DNA from: a virus
Strand: one strand, 5' to 3'
Length of the DNA: 64,000 nucleotides
Virus record (IMG/VR): IMGVR_UViG_3300046167_000659
Location: 2,608-66,607 of that record
Shown here piece after piece: positions 4,777 to 58,592 of the stretch (its first letter is position 1; the number at the start of each line of letters is the position of its first letter). The notes beneath the pieces were generated by a model. The model did not search any database, was not told the DNA's origin, and saw only the letters and a program-made list of their open reading frames with translations. The translations under genes and the position numbers were made by a program.

Positions 4777-5049
4777 TCATAATCCTGATTTTTGTAAGAA
4801 ATAGTTATAAACTTCTGGTATATGCTTTTTGTAATAAGGCTGTTCTGATGCAACCCATTTTTTAAGCTCTGCTTTAGACTTAAAGCCTGCACTATGATCC
4901 CAAAATCCATCAGATCTTTGTATAGTATTAAAACTTGGCTCTATGTCGTCTATAAAGTCGCCGACTGTCCAGCCTTCCCATATGTGTTTATCTCTATTTA
5001 CCATGTCTTGTATTGTATTAAAATATCTATCTGCTAGTGGATCATTCAT
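4777..5049 (-). CDS. Hypothetical protein (start probably at 5049, MNDPLADRYF)
   Basis: ORF; ATG overlaps the ligase stop; HIWEGWTVGDFI motif. Confidence 0.6.
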   Translation of the reverse strand: MNDPLADRYFNTIQDMVNRDKHIWEGWTVGDFIDDIEPSFNTIQRSDGFWDHSAGFKSKAELKKWVASEQPYYKKHIPEVYNYFLQKSGL

Positions 5050-5878
5050 AATTTCTAAGTGTTTTAAATAGCGGGTGTCTGTAAGAACCTGCTTGTGTTC
5101 GTTGAAAATAAGTAAAGGTAGCACGCTGACCGATATAGTCGTGTATATTGTCTAGTATATTTTTACGATCTGCAAAGTTGTAACCTTTACCGATAGGGCA
5201 GCCAAACATTATGCCATCATCATCTAGCATTAAGAACTTGCCAATAAGACCTGTAAACTTACCTTTGCCAGCTTCATAGCCTACAATAGTAGCTTCTGTG
5301 TCACTGAAGTCTTTGAACTTCTGCAAATTGTAAGAACGTTTATGCTCATACTTTTTGTTAAGACGTAACATAGAGCCTTCGTAACCTTGAGCTAAGTGTA
5401 CATTGTGTAACATTTTAGCTTCATCATAGCTATCAACAACTGTATTTTTAATAAGTGTCATTGTAGCTGCGATAGGCAAGTAACGAGTTAGCCAATTAAA
5501 ACGATCTTCGTAATTAACGTCGTGTAGCATATTGTGAATACCATCATACACATGATATTGTACAAGATGCTGCGCGTCACGCGCGTCCTGATCAGTTGGT
5601 TTTTGTTTTCTAACTAATGATATGATCTTTTCAAAATCGTCCTTTAGAGCATGATTATACAGCTCACCGTCTAGTATTACGTTAGGATGTTTTCTGAAAA
5701 AATCTGTTAGATCATACTTAATATGAGCTAGGTTTTTAAATTCTTTACCTGTACGAGAGTACGCACCGTCTTTAGTGAATATACAACGAACACCGTCAAG
5801 CTTAGGTTGTATGAATACTTTCTCGGACCAGTCGACAGGTTTTTTGTCTACTTTGTATGCGAGCATTGGTTTTATCAT
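5042..5878 (-). CDS. ATP-dependent DNA ligase
   Basis: Motif I QPKLDGVRC, LDGELY, YHVYD, GYEGSMLR, LQKFK; OB-fold end with RHPLF. Confidence 0.95.
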   Translation of the reverse strand: MIKPMLAYKVDKKPVDWSEKVFIQPKLDGVRCIFTKDGAYSRTGKEFKNLAHIKYDLTDFFRKHPNVILDGELYNHALKDDFEKIISLVRKQKPTDQDARDAQHLVQYHVYDGIHNMLHDVNYEDRFNWLTRYLPIAATMTLIKNTVVDSYDEAKMLHNVHLAQGYEGSMLRLNKKYEHKRSYNLQKFKDFSDTEATIVGYEAGKGKFTGLIGKFLMLDDDGIMFGCPIGKGYNFADRKNILDNIHDYIGQRATFTYFQRTQAGSYRHPLFKTLRNYE

Positions 5879-6387: not shown

Positions 6388-6416
6388 AAGTTATTTAATT
6401 TAATTGTTAATAATTG

Positions 6417-8426: not shown

Positions 8427-8699
8427 TTAATTAAGATCTGCTAGTTTATACTCGCCTGATTCTATTTTAACTCTAGTGTCTGCAATACCTTCACCTAAAA
8501 ACTCGTTACGATATTTACTAGTTGTACGTGAGTAGTCCCAATAGTAATCATCTAACGTTATTTTACCATTATTGTCACGTAAAGCAATAACACTGTCATA
8601 ACTTTGAAAATAAGTTCCGTAGTTCGTATATATAACGAACTGATTAGCTACAGGTCTTCCTGAGCGGTTGCTTGTCATTTGTCTAACTTTTGCTGTCAT
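8427..8699 (-). CDS. Hypothetical protein (true start probably 8699, MTAKVRQM)
   Basis: VANQFVI...FQSYDSVIA...WDYSRTTSKYRNEFLG; the upstream extension in the track overlaps the mini-tmRNA. Confidence 0.7.
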   Translation of the reverse strand: MTAKVRQMTSNRSGRPVANQFVIYTNYGTYFQSYDSVIALRDNNGKITLDDYYWDYSRTTSKYRNEFLGEGIADTRVKIESGEYKLADLN

Positions 8700-8711
8700 A
8701 TTTAATTGTTT

Positions 8712-8792
8712 TAGTGGAGGTGGAGAGATTCGAACTCTCTTCCGCAATAGTTCCATATAGGCTTTCTATCACGTCAATACCAGGTCACCCCC
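8712..8792 (-). ncRNA. Mini-tmRNA: tRNA-like domain only, no tag reading frame
   Basis: GGGGGTG/CACCTCC acceptor with G3-U70 and A73; unpaired D loop ACCTGGTATTGA; helix CGTGATAG/CTATTGCG closed by a 15-nt loop; GAA linker; T arm GAGAG-TTCGAAT-CTCTC. Confidence 0.8.
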
Positions 8793-19581: not shown

Positions 19582-19584
19582 ATT

Positions 19585-19878: not shown

Positions 19879-19889
19879 AATATAATAAA

Positions 19890-21142: not shown

Positions 21143-21155
21143 CAAAAACAAACTA

Positions 21156-23882: not shown

Positions 23883-24998
23883 ATGGCAATTAATTTTTTA
23901 AACAACGTTGATTACAATAAAAATCAACTTTTAAACCCAAGAATTCAAAACGAAGCAAACGACACCGCTGCTGGAACACCTGTAGAGGGTCAGTTATATT
24001 ATAACACAACAAGCAACGTGCTTAAAGTAGGTAGAGAAGTAACACCTGTTACAAACCCTCCAACTTACCAATGGGCTGAAGTATCGAGCTCTTACGGATT
24101 CAGTTTAAGTGATAGTGCAAACCCTGCTATAACCGGTTCGATAGCATCAGGTGACACTGTTAAAATAGCTGCAACTGAAGATTTAACATCTAATTTAACA
24201 GGTGAAACAACTACAGCTAAAACCCTTACTGTAGGCTTAAAAGTAGATGGAGGCGTTGGTATATCTGATAATTATGTGGTTAATCAAGGTTCGGCTACAG
24301 CTGCAGCGGATGATACAATACCTTTCAACAACTACACGGATGTAGGCACTCCTGCTACAAGTACCAATGTGGTTAAGAAAACAACTTTTGGAAGTATACC
24401 AGTAGATGCTTTGACATTAGTTAAAAGCTATATTGATAGCTCTGTTACTGGAGGTTTAATATATCAAGGTGGTTATGATGCAGTCAATAACCAGCCTGAT
24501 TTAACAACTTCGCCAAACACTATTAAAAAAGGCTGGACTTACACAGTAACTGTAGGTGACACGTTTTTTGGAGAAGTTCTTGAGGTTGGGGATGTACTTA
24601 TAGCAGAACAAGATGATCCAAGCTCTTTAGCGGACTGGACAACAGTTCAAAACAATATAGATATTGCTACAGCTGGAACTGACACTGGCGCTGGCGCCGC
24701 TGTCATTGGGATATCTCGCTACGATGAAGACGACTTTACAGTTAGCGCCTCTGGTTTTGTAGAACTAAAATCAACGTCTGCAACTGGTGTAATTACAGCA
24801 GGTTCTTTATCTGGAACTGTGAATCACACTTTTGGATTAAATACATTAGTTCAAACTATAAACTCTTCTGGAGATACAGTGCACTGTGATGTTACTAGAA
24901 CAACAACAAGTGGAGTGGGAACCCCTTCAACTTCTGTAGCTACTATAGCTGCAGCAGAAGCAACAGACATTACTATCCTAGTGCAGAAAATAGGGTAA
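23883..24998 (+). CDS. Fibre/structural protein, copy 2 (native end)
   Basis: T/S/G-rich beta protein; EGQLYYNTT; GGLIYQGGYDA. Confidence 0.7.
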   Translation: MAINFLNNVDYNKNQLLNPRIQNEANDTAAGTPVEGQLYYNTTSNVLKVGREVTPVTNPPTYQWAEVSSSYGFSLSDSANPAITGSIASGDTVKIAATEDLTSNLTGETTTAKTLTVGLKVDGGVGISDNYVVNQGSATAAADDTIPFNNYTDVGTPATSTNVVKKTTFGSIPVDALTLVKSYIDSSVTGGLIYQGGYDAVNNQPDLTTSPNTIKKGWTYTVTVGDTFFGEVLEVGDVLIAEQDDPSSLADWTTVQNNIDIATAGTDTGAGAAVIGISRYDEDDFTVSASGFVELKSTSATGVITAGSLSGTVNHTFGLNTLVQTINSSGDTVHCDVTRTTTSGVGTPSTSVATIAAAEATDITILVQKIG

Positions 24999-32028: not shown

Positions 32029-34456
32029 ATGGCTGAATCAGTTGTAAAAAGTACTTTTCCTAGTCAAGTAGCTAGTGATGCTGAAAAAATGTCGCCTGAG
32101 TATGGACTTAAGGTTGGTAGAGCTATTCAAGACGAGTGGTTTCAATTAGATTCTGGTACAAATAGATATAGAAGCAATCAACATACGTTTCACAAGTTAA
32201 GGTTATACGCTAGAGGCGAGCAGCCTATACAGAAATACAAAGATGAGCTTTCTATTAACGGTGATTTATCTTACTTAAACTTAGACTGGAAGCCCGTACC
32301 TATTATACCAAAATTTGTAGACATCGTTGTTAACGGTATATCTGAAAGAGCTTTTGATATAAAAGCGTACTCACAAGATCCTTATGGAGTCAGTAAAAGA
32401 ACTGATTACATGGAAAGCGTACTTAGAGACATGTACACTAAAGATCTTAACAACTTTGTACAAGAGAATTTTAATATAGCTTTATTTGAAAACCCAGAGG
32501 AAGATTTACCTGAAACTAAAGAAGAGCTAGAGGTTCACATGCAGCTAACATATAAGCAAGCTGTTGAGATGGCTGAGGAGCAAGCTATAAACACTTTACT
32601 TGACGGTAACAATTATGATCTAACTAAAAAGCGTTTTTATTACGACCTAACTACAATAGGTATTGGCGCTGTAAAAAATAGATTTACATTATCGGAAGGG
32701 CATTGTGGTTGAATATGTAGATCCTGCTAATCTAGTATATTCTTACACTGAAGACCCTAACTTTCAAGACGTATATTATGTTGGCGAAGTAAAAGATGTC
32801 ACTATAAATGAAATAAAAAAGCAATTTCCAGATTTAACAAACGATGATTTAGAAAAAATATCTAAAACATCATATCAAAGTAATAGCTATTACGATCGAC
32901 CATTAAATAACTCTGCTAGCCCAGACGTTAATACTGTTCAAGTTTTATACTTTAACTTTAAGACTTACATGAATGAAGTATATAAGGTTAAAGAAACAGC
33001 TACTGGAGCTTCAAAGGTGGTACTTAGAGACGATCAGTTTGATCCACCAGTTGAAATGCTTGAAGAACAGTTTGGAAAATTATCTAGGTCCTTAGAAGTG
33101 CTGTATGAAGGTGTATTAATATTAGGTACTGACTACTTGCTTCAATGGGAGTTGGCAAAAAATATGATGCGTCCTAAAAGCGATCATACTAAAGTTAAAA
33201 TGAACTATAGTATTGTAGCTCCAAGAATGTATAAAGGTAAAATTGAATCTTTAGTAAGCCGTATAACTGGATTTGCTGATATGATTCAATTAACTCATTT
33301 AAAGCTTCAGCAGGTGTTATCAAGAATGGTACCGGATGGAGTCTACCTTGATGCTGATGGTTTAGCTGAAATAGATTTAGGTAATGGAACAAATTATAAT
33401 CCGCAAGAAGCATTAAATATGTTCTTTCAAACAGGATCTGTAATTGGTAGATCATTTACTCAAGAGGGTGATATGAATCCTGGTAAAGTACCTATACAAG
33501 AAATAACTAGTGGAGCTGGTGGTGGCAAGATGGCTGCGTTAATACAAACGTACAACTATTATCTACAAATGATAAGAGACACTACGGGATTAAACGAAGC
33601 TAGAGATGGATCAACACCAGACGCTAAAGCTTTAGTTGGTGTACAGAAAATTGCAGCAGCTAATTCAAATACAGCCACAAGGCATATACTTACAGGTGGT
33701 TTGTTTTTAACAGCAGATTTAGCCGAATGCTTGTCTTTGAGAATTTCCGATGTATTAGAATACTCTCCAACTAGAGAGGCTTTTATACAAAAGATTGGAG
33801 GACATAACGTTGCTACTTTACAAGAAATGGGTGATCTTCATTTGTATGATTTTGGTATATTTTTAGAACTTACACCTGATGATGAAGAAAAACAAAGGCT
33901 AGAAAACAATATACAAACAGCTTTATCTGCTGGACTTATTGATTTAGAAGATGCAATTGACATTAGAGAGATAAGAAGCATAAAACTAGCTAATCAAGTA
34001 TTGAAGATTAGAAGAAAAAAGAAGCTACAGAGAGATCAAGCTATGCAGCAGCAGAATATTCAAGCTCAAGCACAAGCAAACGCTCAAGCTCAACAAGTGG
34101 CGGCACAAGCAGAAATTCAAAAAAATCAAGTTATTACAGATCAAAAAGCTCAATTAATGCAAATAGAATCTCAGCTTGATGAAAGAAAAATGCAGATGGA
34201 AGTGCAATCTAAAATGCAGTTAATGCAATTGGAGTTCCAATACAATATGCAGATTAGAGATATAGACGCTGCTAAAGCAGCTAATGATGAGTCTGAAAAA
34301 GAAGATAGAAAAGATCAAAGAGTAAAAATACAAGGTACTCAGCAAAGTGAGCTGATAGACCAAAGAAAAAACAATACACCGCCTAAAAACTTTGAATCCG
34401 CAGGTAATGATATATTAGGTGGTGGATTTGACTTAGGTTCTTTCGAGCCTAGGTAA
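32029..34456 (+). CDS. Portal protein (probable frameshift error near 32699)
   Basis: Follows terminase; PIIPKFVDIVVNG, IRDTTGLNEARDG; Q-rich C-terminal coiled coil (P22-like barrel). Confidence 0.85.
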
Positions 34457-39828: not shown

Positions 39829-42800
39829 ATGCCAGAGTTTATTCATAATTTTACTAAAGGTAAAATGAACAAAGACCTTGACGAACGTTTAGTTCCGAAT
39901 GGAGAATATAGAGATGCTTTAAATTTAGATTTAGCTAACTCTGATGCTAGCGATGTTGGAACTATGCAAAACATAGCTGGTAATTTAGAAATTAGAAATA
40001 AAATAGGTGCAGGTGCAACCTGGACCGGGGGCTACATAGATTCTATGACAAACCCTGTTTGTATAGGATCTTATAGAAACGACATAAACGAAAGAATATA
40101 TTGGTTTATAGCTAGCGACGGAGTCAGTGCTATTGCAGAGTATGATGAAGTTAAAAATGCAGTAAGCCCTGTGTTAGTGGACACTGCAGGGATTTTGAAT
40201 TTTTCAATTGATTATTTAATTACAGGTATAAATGTAATTGATAAGTTTTTGTTTTGGACAGACGATCAAACTGAGCCAAAGAAGATTAATATTGAAAAGT
40301 TTAAAACAGGATCTACCAATTTCTCAACACATAGTAAAATACCTAAATGGGAACCCAACCAAGATAGCTATAACACAAACTTATCTGGACGCCCTGATTT
40401 CGTAGAAGCGGATATCACTACAATTAAACTATCACCTTTAGAAGCTCCAACTCATTTTATGGGAGCTAGTGCTTCTGATAACCCGGGGCAAGCACCCCAA
40501 CCAGGTACAGGTATAGACCCGCTTACTACAAGCTGGGGCTACTTAAATATTGAAAACTTTACTTACAAGCCAAACATTATAATTAATCCAATAGGGTTTG
40601 AATCATTACCTACGTACGCTCAATACTTAGATCTTATAGATCCAGTTACAGGTGACCCAAATGTTTTTGAAAACTCAAGCTTAAATCCCGCAAATTCTGA
40701 GTCATACCCTAATGGGTCTAACACAGCCCCTTATTGGGACGGAAGAGTTACTTTTCAAGTAAACCAAACACCTGGCAGCGCTTTACAAGTTGGAGAGATA
40801 TTAATATTATCAGGAGAAATGGTTAACCAATTTGGGCCAAACGACGATTATGAAATAAGTTTAAAAATACATGCTATAAATGGTGTTTCTATAACTGGTG
40901 AAATACAAGGCTATTTCTAAAAACATAATTAAATCTTTAGACAGCGAAGGTGAGGTTGAAGCTATATCTTGGGATGTGCTTTTAGTAGAAAAAAAGCCTT
41001 TGTTTGAATACGTTTTTCCAAGATTTGCATACAGATGGAAATATATAGACAACGAGTATTCTTGTTACTCTCCGTTTTCTTCAGTAGCCTTTATTGGCAA
41101 TGATTTTGAGTATCTTTCATCCGACGGTTACAATGTTGGAATGACCAATAACTTAAGGAAAGCTTATAATTCAGGATTTAGTTTGGAACGCTGAAGAAAT
41201 TTCTGAAATTGACATACTTTATAAAGAGTCTAACAACACAGCTGTTTATGTAGTTGATACATTGAAAAAAAGTGACTATCAAAACACTACTTTACCCACG
41301 GAGTATGAAATAAAAACAGAGTTAATTGGAGCAGTGGTTGAAAGCAATCAACTGCTTAGACCTTGGGATAACGTGCCTCGCGAAGCTAAGTCTCAAGAGA
41401 TAATTGGCAATAGAATTGTTTATGGTAATTATTTACAAAATTATGACACCGTAGGTGTTGTTAACGAAAGTACTGGTGAAATTTCAACACCAGTTAAATT
41501 AAACACGACATTGTTTTCTACAGAATATCCTGATTTATTAATTACCGACGAGGGAGCTACAGTTTCTACAACATTGCCATATGCATCTCTAAAGTCAATA
41601 AGAACATACCAAGCTGGTGTAGTTTATAAAGATGCTTATGGAAGAGAAACACCTGTTTTTACGAGTGAAAACTCAGGGCTTCAAGTAGATATTGTTAACT
41701 CTTCTACTGTAAATAAACTAGCAATACAACCTACTAACATACCACCTAGCTGGGCAACACACTATAAGTTTTTTGTAAAAGAAACTTCAAATGAATATTA
41801 CAACTTAGCTTTAGATAGATATTATTTAGCAGAAGATGGAAATGTTTGGCTATCTTTTCCTTCTTCAGAAAGAAATAAAATAACTGAAGAATCTTATTTA
41901 ATATTAAAAAAACAGCACGATAATAACGTTGCTGTAAAAGAATTAAATAGATACAAAATATTATCTATTGATAATTCTGCTCCAGACTTTATATCTAAAT
42001 TTGACAATTTCGTAGCTTCAAGAGATGTTGTGGCTGAAAATGAAATTGAGCCTGGTAGAATAACTATAGAGTTTGGGACAGGTAGTGATCCTGGTGCTAC
42101 TTTTAGAGGTGGCTTAAATAGTAGTGCAAATAAATTAACTATAACATATCAAGGAATAACGTCTAATAAGTATGATATCTCAGGGCTCAACCCCTAGCGA
42201 AGACAACACAAGCTTTGATGTAGTTTTGTCACAACCCTTAGGCAATGAAGTGCCTAATATAGATAATGGATCGGATTTAACTATAACTATATATGAAGAA
42301 GTAACCAAAAAACTGCCTGAATTTGAAGGTAGATTTTTTGCAAAAATAAACAGAGACTTTGCTTTTGACACTAATATTATAGATTCATTTGATGCTCAAA
42401 AAACTGATTATGCTGTTGTTGATGAAATTGACTTTGACCACGCAGTTGCAGAAGGAGCTGGCTACGATGGAAGTTATCATTACGCTGATAACGGAAGAGG
42501 TTCTTCATCGGATGGGTGTCCTTCAAGGCCTGAATGGTACAGGTTATTAGGATGGACAGGTTATAGTCAAACTTATGGTGACAGAATGGGTGACGAGCGA
42601 GATTTTGGATATACACCTCCCACAAGACAAAGCAACAAGTTTGGGTACGTATTCGTAGGTCGACGCGATGGGGTTGTAGATAAAATGACAGGTAGAATTT
42701 TAGAAGGTGCTTTAACAACTCCAACCGGAACAATAAATCCAGGAGCTAAAATAAGGTTTGCTAATAGCGATCCAAACGCCGCCTTCAGTGATAAACTATC

Positions 42801-45350
42801 AAGACCCTACACTATAATTGAAACACAGTCAAAACAATCTGCTAGAGGTGGAAGGCAAAAGCCTGGTTATGAAACCAATTGCTTTGATAAAAATTTGGGG
42901 CCAAACTGGAAATACGCTGTGATGATTGTTTTGGATAAGCCAATAACAGAATCCTGGATGCCTAACGCAAATGAATGGAATGTTTTAGAAACAGTACTAC
43001 CTAGTATACAACTTATACGACCAGTTTATGAAGGCGGTAATAAAGTTTTAACCTCTAGCAATCCCGCTATTTTTGAAACAGAACCTAAAGAATCTATTGA
43101 CTTAGACTTATACTATGAAGCCTCAAACGCGTTTCCTATTTCTGAATATAATACAGAAAAAACCTTAGACTGGTTCAACTGCTATATTTACGGCCAAGGT
43201 GTTGAGTCTAACCGTATAAGAGACGACTACAACGCTCCTTTTATAGACAAAGGACCTAAAGTATCTACAGTGTTAGATGCTCCTTATAGTGCTGAAAGAA
43301 GAGGTAGTGGATTTATATTTTCACAAATATACAACTCTACCTCTGGAATAAACAGATTAAACCAGTTTATACAAGCAGAACCAATTACAAAGGATCTTAA
43401 TCCAATACATGGTACGATACAAAAATTGCACGCTAGAGACACTGATTTAATATCTCTGTGTGAAGATAAATGTTTCCGTATATTAGCTAATAAGGACGCT
43501 CTATTCAACGCTGATGGCAACGCAAACTTAACATCTAATCAAGCTGTATTAGGTCAAGCTGTTCCTTATGCTGGAGAATTTGGTATATCTAAAAACCCAG
43601 AGTCATTTGCATCTTATGGCTTTAGATCTTACTTTTCAGATAAAAACAGAGGTGCTGTAATTAGACTTTCTGCTGACGGTATAACTAACATAGCAGAAAA
43701 AGGGTATGTCTAGCTTTTTTGCAGATAACTTAAGAACTACCTACAAAAGCTATAGGTAGTTATGACGATGACAAGGATATATACAACCTTACATTGAACA
43801 ACTTGTCTAGCTATTGGCAAAAGAGATTAAGCCTTGATGCTAACTACCAATTAGACCCAGACTGCGAAGACGCTCCTGATAGCCTAGTACCTAATACAAC
43901 GGTATCGTTTAAAGAAGGTGTAGATGGATGGACTAGTAGAAAAGATTTTATACAAGAATCAGGTGTAACATTAAACAATAATTACTACACTTTTAAAGAT
44001 GGTCGTTTTTGGTTACATGGGGTTAATCCTTTACATAACAACTTTTATGGAGTTCAATATGACAGCTCTTTTAATGTTGTTTTTAATGAAATGCCTCAAG
44101 TTGTAAAAGGCTTTAGCACTTTAAATTATACAGGCACAGCTTCTAGAGTACTTGAATACCAAGGGCCAAACGAAAAATGGTATTCTATAGCAGAAGTTAA
44201 TGCTAATCAAATAATACCTGAATTTTCACAGATTAAAAAGCACGGCTGGTACACTAGCTTTATTAGAACTGATCTTGAGGCTGGTAAAATTAAAGAATTT
44301 CAAAAGAAAGAAGGCAAGTACTTTAATTACATAAAAGGCACTTTAATTGGATGTGAACCTGATGGTGGGGGTATTGGACCTTGTTTAGACTGTGGAGATG
44401 ATACACCTCAAGACTACTTATTAACAGTTACTATTGACGAAACTTGTAGCAGCTCAGGCTCTCCTACCCCAGATACTACTTTTGAAGGTTGGTATGAATG
44501 GAATGCTAAAGGAAAAGACTCTTCAATAAAAAACTCACCAACAGCCGAAGAGGCGAAATGTATTATAGATGATTTTTACACTTATATAGGAGGCGGCTAC
44601 TCAAGTATACAACAGCGTAGAAGAAACTACTTTAAGTATGTTTTTTCGGATGGAATTCAACCAGGCACTCAAATGTACGACTTTTATACATCAGGAACAG
44701 AGCCGGATGTTATTCCTAACGGAGGTACTTTCTTATGGACTAAACAGCCAATAGAAGCAATTCCAAGCGATGTAGCTTTAGACTCTAGCAATCCCGCTAC
44801 AGTACCTGACGCTTACAGTATAGTTATAATTGGGTCTGATGGAATTGTTGATTCAGTTACACAATATAATACGTTAACTAGCTGCGCTCCTACAACCCCA
44901 GACATGTCTAGAAATTTTAATAGCACCCTAAAAGCAAACAATTCTGACCCTCAAATACCTCCTTTTCTTGTTTCATCAGGGCACACCAGCGCAGATAACT
45001 TTTTATGTAGCTTAAGGTCATTTATGAATTTGTTTTGGGAGCAAAAAGATGATCCAAACATAGACGGACCTAATGGGGGATGGTCAGGCGGTACGCTGTG
45101 GTGGCATGGCCCAGGAGAAATTGAGCTTGGTAAGGTTCTTTATACAAATCCTGATTCTTTAACCGTTGCTCTTTTACGTTCTTATTTGGTGACTGGACCA
45201 GTGGGAGGTAACATTGAGTACGATGCAGCTAACAGGTGGACTGATGTATCTGTGTTACCTGATAGTTATAAGTTAATTAAAACGGACGAAAATGGGGTGG
45301 TTATTGAAATTACTCAAATGAATCAAATCCCAAACCCTTCATGCAATTAA
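39829..45350 (+). CDS. Tail stabilisation/nozzle protein (fragmented by several probable single-base errors)
   Basis: GKMNKDLDERLVPNGEYRDALN start, GNRIVYGNY, GVESNRIRDD, FGISKNPESFA, GWTSR, KEGKYFNYI spread over five track ORFs. Confidence 0.7.
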
Positions 45351-49591: not shown

Positions 49592-52500
49592 ATGTTCGAA
49601 TACGAAGGAAATGAATACTCATTAGAAGATGTAAAACAAGCTGCTTCAAATCTTGATATGGGATTTGACGAGTACGTTAAAAAGTATAATCTTAAAGAAA
49701 AGGGAAAAGCAAACGGTGTTGCACAACAGGATGCAACTGTAGCACCTCAACCGGAAATAGCATCCGAGAATATGGACTTAGAGCCGGAAAATGGTTCTTT
49801 GGATTTAAAAGAAATTGATCTTGACACGTATATAACCTTACAGCCACAGCAGAAAATGGGCGTTCCTTACGAGCGCAGAAAAGAGCTAAATAAAGAGCGT
49901 AGAAAAAGAGATTTTCAGATAAAAAAAGATAGAGCTACTTCAACAGAAGAAGCTAAGCTATTTAAGGATATGACTGAAGGTTATTTCAGTAATCCTTCTT
50001 TATATGAAAACGTACAAGACAAAGGCTTCTTTAATAAATTAATTACTAAAATAGCATTTCCTACTTTAGAGTGGGGTACAGATGCTGGGGTTAGAGTTTT
50101 TGATGAAGAAAATATTGAAGCTAAAGGTAGGATAGATGGTACTGTGTCTGAGCTTAATAAAAATCCAGAATATAAAGAAGAAATAGTAGAAGGTTTAAAG
50201 AAAAGGTTTAAGTTTGAGCATCCTGACATGGAGCTTCCTGATGTCTTAGCTATAGATAACTTTGTAGACAACGCTATAGATAAGAAAATAAGCGAAGAGC
50301 GTAACATAATAATTACAAAAAGACAAGAAGCTAAAGAAAAAGACGAAGCAGTTGTTGATACATATAAAAAAGGATTGCCGCTATATATGTCTAAAGGTAT
50401 AGTTTCTGAAGAAGAAGCACCTGGTATAAAAATAACGAATGAAATATTAGAGCTAGAAGAACAAAAAGAAAAATTACTAGAACAAGATCCTGCTTTAGAC
50501 GCTAAAATAAAGGCTAAACAGAAAGAGCAAGAAGAAATATTTAAAAAAATTGATGAAAACTACACGTCTTACTTTGACATATCAACTAATAAAAGACTTA
50601 CGGCTCTAGAGAAGCAAGCTAGAGAGGACGCTGGCGAAGAGGAAACTATGGTTGACAAATCTAAAGAATTAACAGCTTTAGAAAAGTTCTACTCTTCACA
50701 GCCTAGAGAGAAATTAAAAACACAATATTACGGCAACATATCTGATATTGAAAACTTAGAACAAGAATATAAAGATATATGGAATACGGTCTCAGCTGAA
50801 GACACTGATGTTTATGAAAAAATAAAAAATACTGATTTTTTCAAAAATTTAAGTAATAGAGAAAAGGCTATAGAGTCTTTAAACTACCTTAGCGATGAGC
50901 AAAGAGATAGAGCTAAAAAAGAACTAGGTTTTATTGATGAAGATTTAAAAACATCGTTATTAGAAGCTGAAGCTCTTAAAACAACCTTACTGCTCAATAG
51001 GGATCCAGCTAGCGTTAAATCAGACGGTGTTACTAGGTTTTTTGAATCTGCTGCTGAAGCCACTTTTGGTGAAAAAGATATAGTTCTAGATTTTGGTACT
51101 TCAAAAAGAAAAGAACTAGATCAGCTAGAAAAAACACTAAAAGATGCAGATATAGATCTTACTAAAGATCAAAAAGAAAATTTTGAAAGAAGCATAGCTA
51201 TGGAAGTGACTGAAGGCGTTGGTGCTTTTGTTCCTGAACTAGCTAAGTTCGCTGTCGCTAATAAAGCACAGGGCGCATTAGGTATGACTAAGGTTTTAGG
51301 TAACTTAATGAAGTCTAAAAAAACTATAGATAGAGTAAAAGGCTTTATGCTTGGAGCTGTTTTAGAAGAAGCTAAATTTAAAGCTGTAACAGTAGGTGAG
51401 TCTGAACTAGGTGCTGGTGCTTTCTTTTTTGTGGGTGGCGCTGGTGCTAGAGCTTTAACGCCTTTTAGATTTACAGGTAAAGCAGCTGCTTTTAATCCTG
51501 CGTTAGAAAAGATTGCTTTAGCAGGTGTTGGTGGAGCAACAGCTAGTGAAGTAGCTTTAGTAGGCGAAGGTTTTTTAAAGTCTTTAGAAGGCAATGTTGA
51601 CTTTGAAGCATATATGAACGAGAACTTTGGTGAAGATGCTAAAGCTATGAGAAGGTTTGCTGTAAACGTTGGAGTTTTCGGTTCTATTGGAGCAACTGGC
51701 ATGAAAGGCACGGATTGGATGTCTATGTCTGGTAAGTACAAACTTCTTGACAAGCTTAAAAACGATTTATCTACTGGTGAATTAAATTCTTCTCAAGAAA
51801 AGCAGAAAATAAACAGCATAGAAACCTTAACAAGAGACATAGCTATATCGGAAAGAAGCTACGACAATCTTGTTATGTCTGATCAATTAGAGAATAAAGC
51901 TAACGCTGAAAAAGCTTTAGCCGAAGGTAATCTTACTTTTATAGAAAAAAGACAAGCTAAAAAAGCTGTGTCAAGGGCTAATGCAAACATTGACAGAATA
52001 AGAAGAAAAGTAAACACGTTTAAAACAAACGTTGAAAAAAGCGGAATACTTGTTGGTGATAAAAAACTAAAAGTAATTGTCACTGAAAATGGTAAAGACG
52101 CACAAGGTAGAGATCTTATAGCTAGTGACTCTAAAGCAGAGTATATATCAGAAAAAGATGGTATACCAATGAACGCTATAGTTGTTAACATAAGCAAAAT
52201 GCGACCTGGCGTTGGAGGTCACGAGCTTGGTCACGCTTACTTTAAAGCTGCTTTTGACGCTAACCCTAAAGCTGCAGAAGCTCTTAGAAGTAAAATAGAG
52301 ACTCAAGTAGAGCCTATTTTAGATCCATTTTTTAAAGAAGCAACAGGGTCAACATTTAAAGAATTTTTAGACAAGACGTACGAGAAAGATTTAACAGCCG
52401 AAGAGTATGTTTTTAACGTTGTAGAGCAACTTTCTAAGCCTAAGTTTAGAGATGTTTTGTTGAAACAAGGTGTATTACCAGGTCTAAAAAGAGCTATAAA

Positions 52501-55500
52501 CAATACAGCAAACTCTATGGGTCTTGGCTTTAAAGAAAAAGACCTTAAAACAGCTGGTGATGTTTTAGAGTTCTTAAGTAGTATAGAAGATATAGCTAAA
52601 AGAGGTAGTGCTACAGCTTTAAAAAAGAAGTTTGATCAGTTTAGAACAGTTAAAGTGGATGGTAACAAACTTACTGATTTCCAAGGCAGTGAAATAACAC
52701 CTGAAAAAGCTGAAGAAGCAAGAGCATCTAAAGACTTAGAAGCGTCAGCAACCGATTTAATTAAAAAATACCAGACCAACAAGGAGGGTATGACATCTAA
52801 AGAGTTGACCAATTTAAAAAGTCAATTTGTTAGTATAGGAGTAGAAGCTGTAAGTAGGTGGGCGGCTAAAAAAGGTGTATCTGTTAGTGCTATTAAAGGT
52901 AATCCTGAAATAGCAGGTAAAATTTTAGATCAGCTTGGAAGTGTAACTAAAAACTACAAAGAGGTAAATCCAGTAACTAAACAGAAAAGAGAGCTTAGTA
53001 CTTACATGGAAAGTTTTTTAGGATTAAGAGTTGGTACTAAAATAGTGGAAGAATACAGTAGAAAACTAAAGACTACAAGCGCTGATGCTGACTTCGTTAG
53101 AGAGATTGAAGATAAATCTTCCAGCGGAAACTTAAGTAAGAGAAAAGCTAAAGAAGAAGCTGAATACAGAGATCTAATAGACGTTAGAGAGTTTACACCC
53201 GCAAGAATAAAAAAAGAATTATTAGAAGAAGCCGTAGACGTTGGTAAAGACGCTGGTAGTGTTTCTAAGTTAACATATAAAACTACAGAAATTGATTATG
53301 CGCCAAAAGTAGCCGAAGCGCTGTTAGATATGCCTTATGATAGAGCTACCGGTAAATCTACGTTAAACTATGGTAAAGGCGGTGGCGCAGCTGAAGTTTC
53401 TAGAATGCAAGGTCTTTTTAGAAATATACAAGAGTTTAAAGAGTTTATAAAGACGATGCCAGAATACAACGTTGCTGGCCCAGAAACTGTACTTAAAACT
53501 ATAGAAGGTCAAGAAAAAATTATAGATGTTTCACCTGACGCTAAAGGTTACGCCACAGGTTTAAACAACAAACTACTTAAATTGATGTACGACAAGGTTA
53601 ACGTTCAAATACCTGGTATATCATCTCCTAAAGGTAGAAGCTTAGGTAAAACGTCTCAAACTCAGGTGTGGAGATTAAAACCTGAGTTTAGAAAACCGTA
53701 TGCAGAAACTTTAAGAAAATTACAGCAAGATATAGGTATTACTCCAGCTGGTGAGCTTAGTATACCCATGAAAGCTGCTAATAGAACTAAGTTCGGTACA
53801 CTCTTACAGGGTTTAACAAAGGTATATGTTAGTAATCTTACAAACAAAATAGTAAGATCTAAGATTGAAGAATCTGGCATTAAAACAGCTAAGGGAACAA
53901 AACAGGTAATAGCTGATATTGCGGCTGGTAAGTCTAAGCGTATGGCTAGTAAAGATATTAAAGAAAATATAGCTAAGTTTAAGCCCAGCTTCTTAAAGGA
54001 CCTAAAAGACATAAAAATGTATGAGGAAGGTGAGTCTGATTTTTACAACGCTCTATCATCTGGTATGAGTGTTGAGAAAGCTTTTAACTCTTCCTTTGAT
54101 AAAACTTTTTTAACCAGTAAGAATGGCAAGCCTTTAAAAACTAAAAACGATTTAATAAAGTCTATTGAGTGGATTACTGGCGAATATGATAGGGCTAGTA
54201 GAGCTCTTTCTAAAGGCACTGAGCCAAAGTCACTTCAAAGATTTTTATACGAACAAGTTTCAGAGCAAAGAGCTATTGAGAACTTAAAGTACATGTTAGA
54301 TATAGGTAAAGACGGCATAGATTTTAACGACGCTAGTCAAATAAACGCTAGTGTAAAAGCGCTTGAAAAAGCTATTGGCGAAATATACAAAAAAAAGACA
54401 GACGCTGAACTCGCTGAAGCAGGTGCGTTTTTAGTTAAATCTTACGCTACTAACGCTAAAGTTGGTAGTGGTTTATTTGAGTGGGCTGAAACAGCGTTTG
54501 GAAGACAATTAGAACTATCAAATGGTAAAACAGGTACTCTTAGACAAAGTATATTTGGTAAAGCTGAGGATTTTATAGATCTTATTATAAAACCTAACAT
54601 GACTAACCCTGAGTCTATTAAAGTTGTTAGAAAACAAAAAAAGACTAAAGAAGGTCCTAGAATGGATTTTTCACATGTGGAGTTTAATGGTGAAAGAATA
54701 GATGTAGAAAGAGCTAAGCAAAGCTCAACAGCTGTGAAAGCTGCTATAAAAGAGGTTAAGGAAAGCGGCGTGATGTCTAAGGAAACACTAGACACTTCTT
54801 TAGACTACGCTAACTCTAATAGAGACTTATTTGTAGACATACTAGAGCAATTTAAGGAAAATGGAGACAGAAATGCCTCGGGTATGTTTTTATCAGGAAG
54901 TACGTCTTCTATGGAAGGCATACTAAGAGCCGCAGCTAACCTAAACAGTATTGCTATAAAAGGTAAAGATTTCAACCCTGACAACTACAGGTATGAACAC
55001 AACCCTCCAGCAAACGTCATGAAAGTTTACGCTGTAGATTACTTAAATGGCAATATAACCAAGGCTGAACTTAGAGCTAAGCTAAACGACTACAACGCTA
55101 GTATTATCCCTAAGGAAATGGATAATATTATAAACGAAAAATACCAAAGCTCCCTGCCTTTAGAAGCTATTATAAACACTTGGAAAAGATATTATAACTT
55201 TAGTCACTACGGTAGAGACATAACGGAGCTTACTCTTTACGAAAAGCAAGCTGATGGAACTTATACAACTACTAGAAAAGGAGCTGGGTTTGAACAAGCC
55301 TATAAAGACGCTCAATCTGCCTTAAAGCAAAACACGTCTACAAAAGCTTCTAAGGAATTTTTTGAAAAACCTAAAAGCGTTCAGGAAAGCATAGAAAACT
55401 TAAAATCCTTAGACAAAGCTTTAAAAGCCGGTAATGACGCTAAAGCCCCTGTTAAAAAGATTAGAGTGTTTGACTTTGACGACACGTTAGCTAGATCTAA

Positions 55501-58500
55501 CAGTAAAGTAAATTATACTGCACCAAATGTAGAAGGTGGCTTCTCGCAAGGTGCTAATAAATATAAAGCTATATTTATGGTTGGTGGTCCTGGAGCTGGT
55601 AAAACCAATATAGGTAAAGGATTACAATTAGGTAGACGTGGATACAAAGTAGTTAATCAAGATATAGCTCTAGAGGCTATGAAAGCAGAATCTGGTTTAC
55701 CTGCCAAAGAAAGCGAATACAATAAAGAACAAAGATCTATGAGATCTAAGCTTGGCGCTGCAGCTAGAAAAGCAGCTGTAGCCAAGTTTGATAAGTATGC
55801 TAAAAATGGAGACGGCATGGTCATTGATGGTACTGGTGCTTCTTACAACGCTACAATGAAAAAAGTAAAACAACTTGAAGACGCAGGTTTTGAAGTTCAC
55901 ATGGTCGTAGCTAATACACCTCTTGAAACTGCCATATCAAGAAACAAGGCTAGAGTAGAAAGATCTTTACCTGATTTTGTTGTTAGAAAAACGTGGGAGC
56001 AAGTGCAAGAAAGCGCTAAGAAGTATAGAGAAGATTTTTCTGATAGATTGTATGAGATCGAAACAACTGATATAGGTTTTGGCGAAGCACTTCCTGAAAG
56101 GTTTTTACAGAAGGTTTACTCAGGTATAACAAGAAATAAAGTTGGTAAAATCAATGCATCTGAGTTTGCAAAGCAATCCGATTTATTAGAAAGTCAAGGA
56201 GCTAAGTTTGATTTTAGAGAATTTAGTAAAGTTATAGACGGAGAAAAAGGACCTTTGTTTAGTGTAGCTGAAAAAATAGCTGCAGCAAGAGGAACTGAAG
56301 ATGTATTTATATTAACCGCTAGACCACCTGAGTCTGCTGTAGAGATACAGAAATTCATGAAAGAGTCTGGTATATCAATACCACTTGAAAACATAACTGG
56401 ATTAGGTGATGGTACTGCTAAAGCTAAAGCTAAATGGGTTTTAGATAAAGCAGGTGAAGGTTATAATGATTTTTACTTTGCAGATGACGCTATTAAAAAC
56501 GTTAAAGCCGTTAAAGACATACTAGGTCAAATAGATGTAAAGTCAAAAGTACAACAAGCTAAAGCGTCTAAAGACATAGATCTTAGCAAAACGTTTAACG
56601 AATACTTGGAGCTTAAAACTGGTATTGGAGCTCAAAAGAAATACGCTAGAGTAAAAGGCGAGGTTGCTGGAAAAGGAAAAGGTAAATTAAACTTTTTTGT
56701 TCCTTATTCTGCCAATGATTTTACAGGTTTGCTATACACAACTTTAGCTAAGGGTAAAAAAGGTGAAGCTCAAATGCAGTTTTACAAAGAAACAATGCTG
56801 GACCCTTACGCTAGAGCTATGAATAACATATCTAGAGACAGAATCGCTATGCTAAACGACTTTAACGCATTAAAAAAAGCAAATAAACTCTGTACCTAAA
56901 AATCTAAAGAAAAAACTACCTGGAGAACCTTTTACCCAAGAGCAAGCTATTAGAGTTAACTTATGGAGTAAGCAAGGTATGGAAGTTCCTGGCTTAAGTA
57001 AGGCGGATTTAAAATCACTTAACGAATTTGTAGAAAAATCTCCAGAGCTAAGCTCCTTTTCAGATCAGTTATCAAACATATTAAAAGGAGATCAATACGC
57101 TAAACCTGGAGAAGGTTGGGTTACTGGTACAATTACCACAGATTTACTACAAACTTTAAATACAACTAAGAGAGCTAAATACTTAGAGCCTTGGAAGCAA
57201 AACGTTAGTGAAATATTTTCTGAGCAAAACTTAAACAAGCTTGAAGCTGCCTTTGGTAAAAATTATAGATCTTCTATGGAAGGTATATTGAAACGTATGG
57301 AGACTGGTAGAAATAGAGGTAACAATGCAGATAAGTTTTCAGGCAAGCTAGTCGATTGGTTGACAGGTAGTATTGGTGTGACTATGTTCTTTAACACTAG
57401 ATCAGCAGTACTACAGACGCTTTCTTCTTTTAACTATTTAAACTTTAAAGACAACAATATATTTGCCGCAGGAAAAGCTTTTGCTAATCAAAAACAATAC
57501 TGGAAGGATTTTTCTACATTGATGAACTCTGATTTCTTAAAAGAAAGAAGAAGTGGTTTACGTATAAATGTAAACGAAGCAGACATTGCTGATATGGCTA
57601 AGAAAGGTGGCGTAAGAGGTGTTGTTAATAAGCTTCTTGAATTTGGTTTTACACCAACGCAGGTTGCTGATAGTTTTGCTATAGCATCTGGAGGTTCTAC
57701 TTATTACAGAAATAGAATAAAAAAATACGTGAAAGAAGGTATGAATGAGGCTGCTGCAGAAAAGCAAGCTCTTAAAGACTGGAGAGAAACATCGGAAGAA
57801 AACCAACAGTCATCTAGACCTGACAGAATATCAGCTCAACAATCTAGTGATTTAGGTAGAGTTGTTTTAGCTTTTGCTAACACTCCTATGCAGTACAACC
57901 GTATAATGAAAAAAGCCTATATGGATCTTAAAGATGGTAGAGGTAGTAAAAAAGAAAACATATCAAAAATACTTTATTACGGAGCTGTTCAAAACTTGAT
58001 CTTTAACGCTCTTCAAAATGCTTTGTTTGCGATAGCTTTTGATGAAGATGATGAAATGTCTGAGCAAGAGAAACAAAGTTCTTATAGAACATTAAACGGT
58101 ATGGCAGATTCTGTTATGAGAGGTTCTGGTTACGTAGGTGCTATAGCTAGTGTCTTAAAAAACACGGCTATAAAGCTAAACACTGAGCTTGATAAAAAAC
58201 GACCAAACATAGAAAGAGTCTTAGTTTCTGACTTGTTAAAAGTATCACCACCTTTATCAGCTAAAGTTTCACAGATTCAAAACGCTTCTAGAGCTTACCA
58301 ATGGAATAAAAATGAAATGATGGAAAAAGGTTTTAGTTTAGATAACCCAGCTTATTTAGCTGGCGGTCAAGTTATATCCGCAGCTACTAACTTACCATTA
58401 GATAGATTAATTAAGAAGGTAAATAATATAGATGCTGCTTTGGGAGAGAATGTAGAAGAATGGCAAAGAATTGCTTTGCTAGCAGGTTGGAATGAATGGA

Positions 58501-58592
58501 ATTTGGGTATGCAGGAAACTAGTAAAAAAACAAAAAAATCAAAGAAAACTAAAGGCATAAGTAGAAAACTTAAAAAAAGAAAATTAAGATAA
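49592..58592 (+). CDS. Giant (~3000 aa) polyvalent internal virion protein (probable frameshift near 56880)
   Basis: HELGH zincin motif, HAD motifs (FDFDDT, ILTARP, FADD), P-loop GGPGAGKT, helical C-terminal region. Confidence 0.8.

What the first reader, a model, noticed from the sequence alone, without database searches (positions are those of the whole stretch)
55440..56560. P-loop kinase nested inside a HAD phosphatase within a virion protein
Seen: HAD motif I (RVFDFDDTL) is followed by a complete zeta-toxin/AAA_33-like kinase (IFMVGGPGAGKT, MVIDGTG, ETAISRNKARVERSLP), after which the HAD fold resumes (FILTARP, K, YFADD). The kinase sits at the cap-insertion position. Established: T4 polynucleotide kinase-phosphatase joins these two folds in tandem to heal tRNA ends cut by anticodon nuclease. 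Inference: an injected end-healing or nucleotide-modifying enzyme with unusual nested topology, possibly complementing the early tRNA/tmRNA mimics. No RNA ligase is visible in this window.
Basis: partly seen in the sequence, partly recalled or inferred. Interest (0 to 1): 0.7.

Follow-up and report, generated by a model that had tools for sequence, protein, structure and literature searches.

The report
Kinase nested inside phage phosphatase domain
A giant protein of an uncultured marine phage carries a phosphatase domain with a complete kinase inserted into one of its loops; both halves look most like the enzyme phage T4 uses to repair cut nucleic-acid ends, and the phage probably delivers it ready-made into the host.

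Summary
Window 55439-56566 encodes a 376-aa module. A ~200-aa P-loop kinase (AAA_33/Zeta_toxin, above the Pfam cut-offs) is inserted at the tip of the flap hairpin of a small HAD phosphatase domain. AlphaFold2 (pLDDT 94.6, pTM 0.86) reassembles the two HAD pieces into one domain. Its best solved match is the T4 Pnkp 3'-phosphatase (Z 13.0). The kinase's best match is the Clostridium thermocellum Pnkp kinase (Z 16.9). Natural controls exist among 264 homologs: 62 are nested and 134 have the same HAD with no insert. Another 17 carry a different insert at the same point. In others the kinase lies elsewhere or replaces the HAD. All four HAD motifs and the kinase P-loop, catalytic Asp and RNxxRxxR lid are at least 98% conserved in 62 nested sequences. 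The host gene is one ~3000-aa gene (49592-58592). In the window it is broken by one extra base, which is absent from two relatives and from contigs of 4 of 4 public runs. It ends the structural operon of a Flavobacteriia-type podovirus, downstream of a crAss-muzzle-like gene. No RNA ligase was found. The end-healing function and virion delivery are inferred, not shown. I rate it a new variant of a known kind.

The parts
49592..58592 (+). One giant gene of about 2990 aa. In the window it is read as two ORFs (49592..56899 and 56979..58592).
   Evidence: ORFs. The frame switch is read. Intact relatives of 2953 aa and similar lengths are. Homologs run straight through the junction.
56872..56879 (+). 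A7 run plus one extra base that breaks the frame. It is probably an assembly error or a rare variant.
   Evidence: The window has one more base than L081 and L094. Contigs of 4 of 4 public runs lack one letter at 56872.
55439..55528 (+). HAD N-terminal piece (q1-30): strand 1, motif I, squiggle and first flap strand.
55472..55486 (+). HAD motif I, DFDDT (D12 nucleophile, D14, T16).
   Evidence: Invariant in 36 of 36 insert-free HADs. D12 and D14 are at least 98% conserved in 62 nested sequences.
55529..56140 (+). P-loop kinase inserted at the flap tip (q31-234).
   Evidence: Pfam AAA_33 and Zeta_toxin. Insert limits come from homologs that lack it. VIA Z 16.9 to the CthPnkp kinase 4gp6_A.
55583..55606 (+). 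Kinase P-loop GGPGAGKT (K55, T56).
55661..55663 (+). Asp75 of NQD, the candidate catalytic base.
   Evidence: Aligned to the first Asp of NRDD in T4 PseT. At least 98% conserved.
55826..55837 (+). DGTG (D130-G133), the Walker-B-like strand end.
   Evidence: At least 98% conserved. Aligned to VVDATN of CthPnkp.
55940..55963 (+). Lid motif RNKARVER (R168, N169, R172, R175).
   Evidence: Same spacing as RNKNRTDR of CthPnkp. At least 98% conserved.
56141..56566 (+). HAD C-terminal piece (q235-376): second flap strand and the Rossmannoid core with motifs II-IV.
56315..56323 (+). HAD motif II, T293-A294-R295.
56426..56428 (+). HAD motif III, Lys330.
56483..56488 (+). HAD motif IV, D349-D350 of FADD.
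43794..45350 (+). Context: protein with a crAss muzzle C-terminal domain, upstream in the same operon.
   Evidence: PF25729 E 1.3e-6, 29.2 bits, cut-off 27.
5042..5878 (-). Context: small ATP-dependent DNA ligase, the only ligase found in the record.
   Evidence: phrog_114 E 4e-74. PF01068 and PF14743.

Best explanation
The module is a two-enzyme unit built by domain insertion. A small, essentially capless HAD phosphatase of the Pnkp 3'-phosphatase type had a polynucleotide-kinase-like P-loop kinase inserted at the tip of its flap hairpin. The kinase therefore sits where a C1 cap would sit, over the phosphatase active site. Both active sites are intact. I read it as a nucleic-acid end-healing enzyme: it removes 3'-phosphate and adds 5'-phosphate, turning 3'-P/5'-OH breaks into ligatable 3'-OH/5'-P ends. 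It is carried inside a ~3000-aa protein that is probably packed in the virion and ejected with the DNA, so it could act before any phage gene is expressed. No phage RNA ligase exists but a phage ATP-dependent DNA ligase does, so the more likely clients are breaks in the incoming phage DNA, or host RNA sealed by a host enzyme. Shown here: the topology, the fold, the conservation, the natural variants and the intact gene in the population. Inferred: the substrates, any coupling of the two sites, and virion packaging.
For: Fold: the AF2 model has pLDDT 94.6 and pTM 0.86, and the two HAD pieces form one domain.
Best solved matches, by VIA-align against 48,161 chains:
- Kinase: 4gp6_A, CthPnkp kinase, Z 16.9, rmsd 2.9, 164 aligned.
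- HAD: 5uj0_B, T4 Pnkp 3'-phosphatase, Z 13.0, rmsd 2.4, 126 of 142 aligned.
- Insert-free homolog P0164: its top three matches are all Pnkp phosphatases (5uj0_B Z 13.4, 4xrp_A Pnkp1 Z 12.8, 1ltq_A Z 12.5). The next generic HADs score at most 11.2.
Foldseek on the nested model also puts 4gp6 and 1ltq first, at E about 1e-7.
Sequence evidence:
- phmmer finds the CthPnkp kinase first in the PDB, at E 1e-3, with the shared lid RNxxRxxR.
- hhalign of the kinase against T4 PseT gives probability 91.8%, E 7e-7.
- phrog_505 (polynucleotide kinase) matches at E 4e-11, and phrog_415 (polynucleotide kinase) matches the HAD piece at E 5e-4.
- The weak best NCBIfam hits are bacter_Pnkp and DNA-3'-Pase.
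Conservation: both catalytic sets are at least 98% conserved in 62 nested sequences that are 41-95% identical to the query.
Age of the arrangement: 66 of 86 complete kinase domains are nested, and nested forms lie in both deep clades of the kinase tree.
Position: the gene is last in the structural operon, after the portal, capsid, tail and muzzle-like genes. In PhiCrAss001 the genes after the muzzle gene encode virion cargo proteins, including giant ones (PMC10172136, passages read). A related podovirus record has a 3859-aa gene at the same place.
Ligase: an ATP-dependent DNA ligase is present in the window and in 4 of 5 near-complete relatives.
Against: - No RNA ligase was found. PF09414 and PF01139 gave 0 matches in 5 relatives rated 92-100% complete, and PF09414 and PF09511 gave 0 in the window's own record. 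The PF09511 control rang in no control genome, so that search is uninformative.
- The Arg three residues after the catalytic Asp (T4 R38, recalled as essential for binding the acceptor) is Leu here.
- At sequence level the HAD is not significantly like the T4 phosphatase: hhalign probability 24%, motif I only; the profile search of the PDB found nothing; Foldseek on the insert-free model reached only E 4e-3.
- The Z margin of the Pnkp phosphatases over generic HADs is only about 2.
- The two domains are not obligate partners. HAD alone occurs in 134 of 264 homologs; 14 of 86 kinases have no HAD downstream; 4 of 86 kinases lie about 1000 aa upstream.
- Pfam Zeta_toxin also passes its cut-off, and a BFVD homolog carries the automatic name UDP-N-acetylglucosamine kinase.
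- DNA ligases are common in lytic phages for replication, so the ligase here says little.
- No virion proteomics exist for this clade. The giant protein has no match in 50,697 cultured or deposited phage records apart from the kinase part.
- I could not read the model coordinates, so whether the two active sites face each other is unknown.
Confidence: 0.5

Rival explanations
1. A zeta-toxin-like small-molecule kinase. It phosphorylates UDP-GlcNAc to block cell-wall synthesis and ease DNA entry, and it sits beside a sugar- or nucleotide-phosphate HAD phosphatase. On this reading the module acts on metabolites, not on nucleic-acid ends.
For: Pfam Zeta_toxin E 7.6e-11, 42.3 bits against a cut-off of 22.3. 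Zeta and PezT appear among the structural matches at Z 14.4 and 13.2. Iyer et al. 2017 (PMC5512222, passages read) describe zeta-like kinases in phage polyvalent proteins and propose cell-wall weakening. A BFVD homolog is auto-named UDP-N-acetylglucosamine kinase. DGTG resembles the EGT of zeta toxins (recalled). The acceptor-binding Arg of T4 Pnk is missing.
Against: AAA_33 scores higher than Zeta_toxin (57 against 42 bits). The best structural and sequence matches are polynucleotide or tRNA kinases: CthPnkp Z 16.9 and PSTK Z 15.7, against zeta Z 14.4. The lid RNxxRxxR has the spacing of bacterial Pnkp. The partner HAD is nearest to Pnkp phosphatases and is capless in its basic form. Capless HADs are recalled to take macromolecular substrates.
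Confidence: 0.15
2. The two domains are independent effectors of a mix-and-match giant cargo protein. The flap tip is simply a permissive loop, and the nesting has no mechanistic meaning and implies no shared substrate.
For: Many arrangements exist: HAD alone in 134 of 264; other inserts at the same point in 17 of 264 (15, 46-50 and 137-153 aa); kinase far upstream in 4; kinase replacing the HAD (P0069, P0071, P0075, P0091); and a tandem HAD-then-kinase form (P0074). The kinase tree needs at least 3 well-supported changes of arrangement.
Against: The nested form is the majority state of this kinase family (66 of 86), lies in both deep clades, and persists down to 41% identity. The pTM of 0.86 suggests a fixed mutual orientation. 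The pairing reproduces the Pnkp domain combination.
Confidence: 0.2
3. An anti-defence enzyme against small signalling nucleotides. It phosphorylates or dephosphorylates an immune second messenger or a nucleotide pool on entry.
For: The only support is context. The protein is probably pre-packaged, and injected polyvalent proteins have been proposed to carry signal-targeting enzymes (PMC7824862, passages read).
Against: There was no match to any PADLOC model. No structural match points to a nucleotide-signal enzyme. A capless HAD is a poor fit for small substrates (recalled principle).
Confidence: 0.08

Closest known systems
Phage T4 polynucleotide kinase-phosphatase (PseT / Pnkp; PDB 1ltq, 5uj0)
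   Same: It has the same two folds, with a P-loop kinase and a DxDxT HAD phosphatase in one polypeptide. It is the best solved match for the HAD (Z 13.0-13.4) and a good match for the kinase (1ly1_A Z 13.9; hhalign probability 91.8%). The P-loop, catalytic Asp, RNxxR lid and HAD motifs I-IV are all present.
   Different: T4 has the domains in tandem, kinase then phosphatase. Here the kinase lies inside the phosphatase. The relative domain orientation differs (rmsd 21.9 when both domains are aligned). The R38 equivalent is Leu. T4 Pnkp is a free 301-aa early enzyme with RNA ligase partners. This module is one part of a ~3000-aa protein in the late operon, and no RNA ligase is present.
Bacterial Pnkp kinase domain (Clostridium thermocellum Pnkp, PDB 4gp6/4gp7) and Pnkp1 of the Pnkp1/Rnl/Hen1 RNA repair complex (4xrp)
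   Same: The CthPnkp kinase is the best structural and sequence match of the kinase (Z 16.9; phmmer E 1e-3 with an identical RNxxRxxR spacing). Pnkp1 matches both domains (Z 13.2 for the whole module; Z 12.8 for the HAD).
   Different: CthPnkp pairs its kinase with a metallophosphoesterase and a ligase-like domain rather than a HAD. Pnkp1 is tandem and works with Rnl and Hen1, neither of which was found here.
Zeta / PezT toxins (UDP-GlcNAc kinases)
   Same: They belong to the same P-loop kinase clan. The Pfam Zeta_toxin model passes its cut-off, and VIA gives Z 14.4 and 13.2.
   Different: They score lower than the PNK-type kinases in both sequence and structure. There is no antitoxin context. 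The fusion partner here is a Pnkp-like phosphatase.
Giant injected phage proteins: polyvalent proteins (Iyer et al. 2017) and crassvirus cargo proteins (Bayfield et al. 2023)
   Same: It is a very large multidomain protein encoded at the end of the structural module, downstream of a muzzle-like gene, with a mosaic and shuffled domain content.
   Different: No MuF or LPD domain and no RNA polymerase motif was detected. The Atlas gave only LPD38/LPD39 leads at 0.93-0.94. In the main text of Iyer 2017, 'polynucleotide kinase' and 'phosphatase' each occur 0 times.

Membership tests
HAD superfamily phosphatase | Motif I DxDx(T/V) at the end of strand 1 | tested here: met
   DFDDT at q12-16. It is invariant in 36 of 36 insert-free homologs. 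D12 and D14 are at least 98% conserved in 62 nested sequences.
HAD superfamily phosphatase | Motif II (S/T), motif III (K/R) and motif IV (DD or similar) | tested here: met
   T293 (in TAR), K330 and D349-D350 (in FADD) are invariant or at least 98% conserved.
HAD superfamily phosphatase | Rossmannoid fold with squiggle and flap; the two sequence pieces form one domain | tested here: met
   AF2 pLDDT 94.6. The HAD pieces q4..376 align to 5uj0_B at Z 13.0 and rmsd 2.4, and to many other HADs at Z above 10. The insert-free model gives the same result.
HAD superfamily phosphatase | A Pfam or NCBIfam HAD model above its curated cut-off | tested here: not met
   Window protein: only DUF2608 at E 0.096. 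Homologs fall just below cut-off: PF00702 at 23.7 bits against 26.4, and DUF2608 at 22.2 against 22.6.
Pnkp-type 3'-phosphatase (T4 PseT C-domain, DNA 3'-phosphatase) | Closest structural relatives are Pnkp phosphatase domains | tested here: met
   The top three matches of the insert-free model are 5uj0_B, 4xrp_A and 1ltq_A (Z 13.4, 12.8, 12.5). Other HADs score at most 11.2, so the margin is modest.
Pnkp-type 3'-phosphatase (T4 PseT C-domain, DNA 3'-phosphatase) | Significant sequence similarity to the family | tested here: not met
   hhalign against T4 PseT: probability 24%, motif I only. TIGR01664: 15.3 bits against a cut-off of 107.65. A PHROG annotated polynucleotide kinase (phrog_415) matches the HAD piece at E 5e-4, which is a weak positive.
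Pnkp-type 3'-phosphatase (T4 PseT C-domain, DNA 3'-phosphatase) | Hydrolysis of 3'-phosphate (and 2',3'-cyclic phosphate) ends of nucleic acids | not testable with these tools
   This needs an enzyme assay.
Polynucleotide 5'-hydroxyl kinase (T4 Pnk / CthPnkp type) | P-loop GxxxxGK(S/T), catalytic Asp after strand 2, and an RNxxR lid | tested here: met
   GGPGAGKT, D75 aligned to the Asp of NRDD in T4, and RNKARVER aligned to RNSKR of T4 and RNKNRTDR of Cth. All are at least 98% conserved. The residue roles are recalled from the T4 and Cth literature.
Polynucleotide 5'-hydroxyl kinase (T4 Pnk / CthPnkp type) | Arg three residues after the catalytic Asp (T4 R38), which binds the acceptor nucleotide's 3'-phosphate | tested here: not met
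   The aligned residue is Leu78 (NQDIAL). The role of R38 is recalled.
Polynucleotide 5'-hydroxyl kinase (T4 Pnk / CthPnkp type) | Family model above its cut-off | tested here: not met
   TIGR04075 bacter_Pnkp is the best NCBIfam hit, but at 19.4 bits against a cut-off of 750 for a whole-protein model. phrog_505 (polynucleotide kinase) matches at E 4e-11; PHROGs have no curated cut-off.
Zeta toxin / UNAG kinase | Pfam PF06414 above the gathering score | tested here: met
   42.3 bits against 22.3, but below AAA_33 at 57 bits on the same stretch.
Zeta toxin / UNAG kinase | UDP-GlcNAc binding residues and a cognate antitoxin | not tested
   No residue-level comparison with zeta or PezT was made. 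No antitoxin context exists, because the domain lies inside a 3000-aa protein.
Phage polyvalent / ejected cargo protein | Presence in the virion and ejection into the host | not testable with these tools
   The only evidence is position: last gene of the structural operon, after a muzzle-like gene, by analogy with PhiCrAss001.
Phage polyvalent / ejected cargo protein | MuF, LPD or similar signature domains | tested here: inconclusive
   There were no Pfam hits other than P-loop kinase/NTPase families in 22 giant homologs, apart from one sub-threshold QueC match, or in the window ORFs. The Atlas gave leads to LPD38 and LPD39 clusters at 0.93-0.94.

The most novel reading that the evidence does not exclude
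The flap tip of a conserved, capless, Pnkp-like phosphatase in the giant cargo protein of a very widespread clade of marine phages works as an exchangeable 'cap cassette' site. It can hold nothing, a 48-aa helical piece, unknown 140-150-aa domains, or a polynucleotide kinase. Each insert would re-aim or extend a pre-packaged enzyme that is ejected with the DNA. The kinase version would be a single-domain-footprint end-healing machine whose two active sites are held over one another. It would repair 3'-P/5'-OH breaks made by host defence nucleases, in phage DNA or host tRNA, before any phage gene is expressed.
Probability: 0.25. Interest if true: 0.8.

Novelty: new variant of a known kind. Interest (0 to 1): 0.6.

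Why it matters
Kinase-phosphatase end-healing enzymes are known only as tandem fusions (T4 Pnkp, Pnkp1, mammalian PNKP). This is a natural case in which the kinase occupies the C1-cap position of the HAD fold. The same protein family supplies built-in controls: no insert, other inserts, kinase moved, and HAD lost. That makes it a good system for studying how domain insertion creates bifunctional enzymes and how HAD caps evolve. The family is abundant. There are 2639 cluster representatives at E up to 1e-3 and at least 553 IMG/VR loci. Near-identical DNA occurs in seawater runs of many studies. Almost all of it is unnamed. If the protein is ejected, it would be a pre-made nucleic-acid repair or anti-defence activity delivered with the genome, which has not been described for podovirus cargo proteins in the papers I could search.

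Tried and rejected
- Pfam, NCBIfam and PADLOC scans of the rest of the giant protein, and Pfam scans of 22 giant homologs. They found no family other than P-loop kinase/NTPase ones, apart from one sub-threshold QueC match.
- Atlas look-ups. The C-terminal ORF gave only weak LPD38/LPD39 leads. The stretch upstream of the module gave nothing, with a best score of 0.76.
- tblastn of the giant protein against 50,697 phage records. The N-terminal 1900 aa and the C-terminal 537 aa gave no match. Only the kinase part matched, in 9 records. megablast gave no match.
- A profile search of the PDB with the insert-free HAD alignment found no HAD. Foldseek on the insert-free model was weak, with a best E of 4e-3.
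- A crAss- or N4-type RNA polymerase motif (DxDGD) in the giant protein: none. No strongly hydrophobic 19-residue window either.
- RNA ligase searches. All were negative. The PF09511 search is uninformative because its control rang in no control genome.
- The search for related loci with alignment A2 failed for lack of a conserved stretch. I used A3 and the single protein instead.
- PMC5062991 (Burroughs and Aravind 2016, RNA repair systems) is not held. It and the supplementary files of Iyer 2017 may describe related HAD-kinase architectures that I could not see.

Full report
**What is there**

The window is 64,000 bases of a 66,607-base IMG/VR virus record. That record is linear and CheckV rates it 64% complete. 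ORF 49592..56899 on the + strand encodes 2435 aa, and a 537-aa ORF follows at 56979..58592. I set the module at window 55439-56566. This is 376 aa, numbered q1-376, and corresponds to residues 1950-2325 of the ORF.

**The kinase**

- Pfam places AAA_33 (E 3.4e-15, 57 bits, cut-off 27) and Zeta_toxin (E 7.6e-11, 42.3 bits, cut-off 22.3) on residues 1990-2142.
- PHROGs gives phrog_12810 (unknown function) and phrog_505 (polynucleotide kinase, E 4e-11).
- Against PDB sequences, the best match is the kinase domain of Clostridium thermocellum Pnkp (4gp7, E 1e-3). The lid RNKARVER aligns to RNKNRTDR.

**The HAD and the nesting**

No Pfam HAD model reaches its cut-off on the window protein. The case for the HAD rests on relatives and on the predicted fold.

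A full-library HMMER search found 2639 cluster representatives at E up to 1e-3, and 742 at E up to 1e-30. Most are proteins of 2500-4000 aa. I mapped the query onto 264 homologs. The result is a natural experiment:

| Arrangement | Number of 264 |
|---|---|
| Whole nested module | 62 |
| q2-30 directly followed by q235-375, 1-2 residues between | 134 |
| A different insert at the same point (one of 15 aa, thirteen of 46-50 aa, three of 137-153 aa) | 17 |
| HAD present and kinase about 1000 aa upstream in the same protein | 4 |
| Partial or other | 47 |

The last group includes giants in which the kinase replaces the HAD at the same place (P0069, P0071, P0075, P0091). It also includes one tandem HAD-then-kinase protein, P0074. 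These counts come from the best-scoring hits of two searches, so they are not an unbiased census.

In 36 of 36 insert-free HADs, DFDDT, TAR, the motif III Lys and the motif IV DD are invariant. The insert-free sequence reads ...SNVLYTMPDGTTGKxxA..., which is a hairpin. In the window the kinase sits exactly in the turn of that hairpin.

**Fold**

AlphaFold2 with a 42-sequence alignment gave pLDDT 94.6 and pTM 0.86. The flap strands are at q23-29 and q233-239, and the kinase lies between them. I ran VIA-align against 48,161 chains:

- Kinase: 4gp6_A (CthPnkp kinase, Z 16.9, rmsd 2.9, 164 aligned), then 2rhm, PSTK (Z 15.7), zeta (Z 14.4) and T4 Pnk (Z 13.9).
- The two HAD pieces together: 5uj0_B (T4 Pnkp 3'-phosphatase, Z 13.0, rmsd 2.4, 126 of 142 aligned).

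An insert-free homolog, P0164, modelled at pLDDT 83.8. Its top three matches were 5uj0_B (Z 13.4), Pnkp1 4xrp_A (Z 12.8) and 1ltq_A (Z 12.5). Other HADs scored at most 11.2.

Foldseek agrees for the nested model, with 4gp6 and 1ltq at E about 1e-7. It is weak for the insert-free model, with a best E of 4e-3.

The insertion point is the C1-cap site of the HAD fold, and capless HADs tend to take macromolecular substrates. Both statements are recalled from Burroughs et al. 2006 and were not read here.

**Conservation and history**

In 62 nested sequences that are 41-95% identical to the query, these residues are at least 98% conserved:

- HAD: D12, D14, T293-A294-R295, K330, D349-D350.
- Kinase: G49, G52, G54, K55, N73, D75, D130-G133, R168, N169, R172, E174, R175.

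hhalign against T4 PseT (fetched) aligns the kinase at probability 91.8%, E 7e-7. D75 falls on the Asp of NRDD, but Leu falls where T4 has R38. The HAD aligns only at motif I, at probability 24%.

I built a tree of 86 complete kinase domains (quick IQ-TREE, midpoint root for drawing only). Nested forms lie in both deep clades, 46 of 47 rows in one and 20 of 39 in the other. Non-nested forms are embedded among them. Well-supported branches force at least 3 changes of arrangement. So the nested state is old and dominant for this kinase family (66 of 86), and it has been undone several times.

**The gene is intact in nature**

The frame shifts at an A7 run. Frame 56801 reads ...NDFNALKKANKLCT*. 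Frame 56802 continues with the sequence that homologs have at that point. The window has one base more than L081 and L094, which are 93-94% identical relatives. Contigs of 4 of 4 public runs laid on the stretch lack one letter at 56872; three are DNA runs and one is an RNA library. The true product is therefore about 2990 aa, spanning 49592-58592. Other genes in the window are also split (GroEL, portal, phrog_14478), which suggests assembly errors.

**Context**

The phage is a podovirus of the Flavobacteriia type.

- Its terminase is 44% identical to those of Flavobacterium elemo phages, and Cellulophaga, Tenacibaculum and Maribacter phages also match. It is 63% identical to that of MW202828.1.
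- The + strand operon runs terminase, portal, capsid and virion proteins, a protein with a crAss muzzle C-terminal domain (PF25729, 29.2 bits, cut-off 27), four small ORFs, the giant gene, and an M15 peptidase.
- MW202828.1 has the same gene order, with a 3859-aa gene at the same place.
- In PhiCrAss001, the genes after the muzzle gene encode cargo proteins found in virions, including proteins of 154-277 kDa thought to be ejected (PMC10172136, passages read).

Packaging and ejection of this giant protein are therefore inferred from position only.

**Partners**

- RNA ligase families: PF09414 and PF09511 gave 0 matches in the window's own record.
- PF09414, PF09511 and PF01139 gave 0 of 5 in relatives that carry the nested module and are rated 92-100% complete. 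The PF09511 control rang in no control genome, so that search is uninformative.
- An ATP-dependent DNA ligase is present in the window (5042..5878, minus strand) and in 4 of 5 of those relatives.
- ARAGORN finds one tRNA-Gln. Rfam finds an 81-nt tmRNA match. Nothing ties either to the module.

**Literature**

- Iyer et al. 2017 (PMC5512222, passages read) note zeta-like kinases in polyvalent proteins. In the main text, 'polynucleotide kinase' and 'phosphatase' each occur 0 times.
- Iyer et al. 2021 (PMC7824862, passages read) describe PKN-HAD as a tandem fusion.
- Three full-text searches found no report of a kinase nested in a HAD, or of a Pnkp in an ejected phage protein.
A description there cannot be excluded.
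- BFVD holds unnamed homologs, one of which is auto-named UDP-N-acetylglucosamine kinase.

**Verdict**

The best-supported function is a Pnkp-like end-healing module carried by a probable cargo protein. The weak points are the substrates, the missing acceptor-binding Arg, the missing RNA ligase and the unproven virion location. The family is large and marine: at least 487 and 553 confirmed IMG/VR loci in two scans, and seawater runs of many studies. It is almost entirely unannotated.

Noticed in passing
window 8712-8792 (-): Rfam tmRNA (RF00023) match of only 81 nt, scoring 64.1 bits against a gathering score of 47. It spans model positions 1-374, so only the tRNA-like ends seem to be present. 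It overlaps the start of ORF 8427..8756. ARAGORN did not call it.
   Followed up: no
window 6416-6489 (-): tRNA-Gln (anticodon TTG) in the early or replication region.
   Followed up: no
window 19529-22255 and 22256-24982 (+): A head-to-tail duplication of about 2.7 kb with a single mismatch over about 2700 bases. It duplicates a holin-like gene (phrog_3427) and two further ORFs. It may be an assembly artefact.
   Followed up: partly
window 15542-17109, 32029-34456, 39829-43713 (+): GroEL and the portal gene are each split into two ORFs, and a phrog_14478 virion protein is split into three. These look like frameshifts of the same kind as the one in the giant gene.
   Followed up: partly
window 52220-52234 (+), residue 877 of the giant protein: An HELGH zincin-type motif, which could be a self-processing peptidase of the giant protein. 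No family match was found.
   Followed up: no
homologs P0079, P0086, P0169 (about 48 aa); P0124 (137 aa); P0017, P0180, P0240 (144-153 aa); P0193 (15 aa): Unidentified alternative inserts sit at exactly the same flap-tip position of the HAD. Pfam found nothing significant in the proteins scanned (P0124, P0169, P0180, P0193, P0240).
   Followed up: partly
L101 and L113 (one IMG/VR contig of 50,058 bases): Two nested kinase-in-HAD modules lie on one contig, on opposite strands and about 12 kb apart.
   Followed up: no
window 10450-10860 (-): A second, unrelated HAD-superfamily gene: an NT5C-type 5'(3')-deoxyribonucleotidase (PF06941, E 1.2e-12).
   Followed up: no
window 56405-56538 (+): When public contigs are laid on the window, depth rises several-fold over the motif III-IV part of the HAD, and many contigs run on into unlike sequence. 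This fits the HAD being the most conserved part shared by many different phages in the same samples.
   Followed up: no
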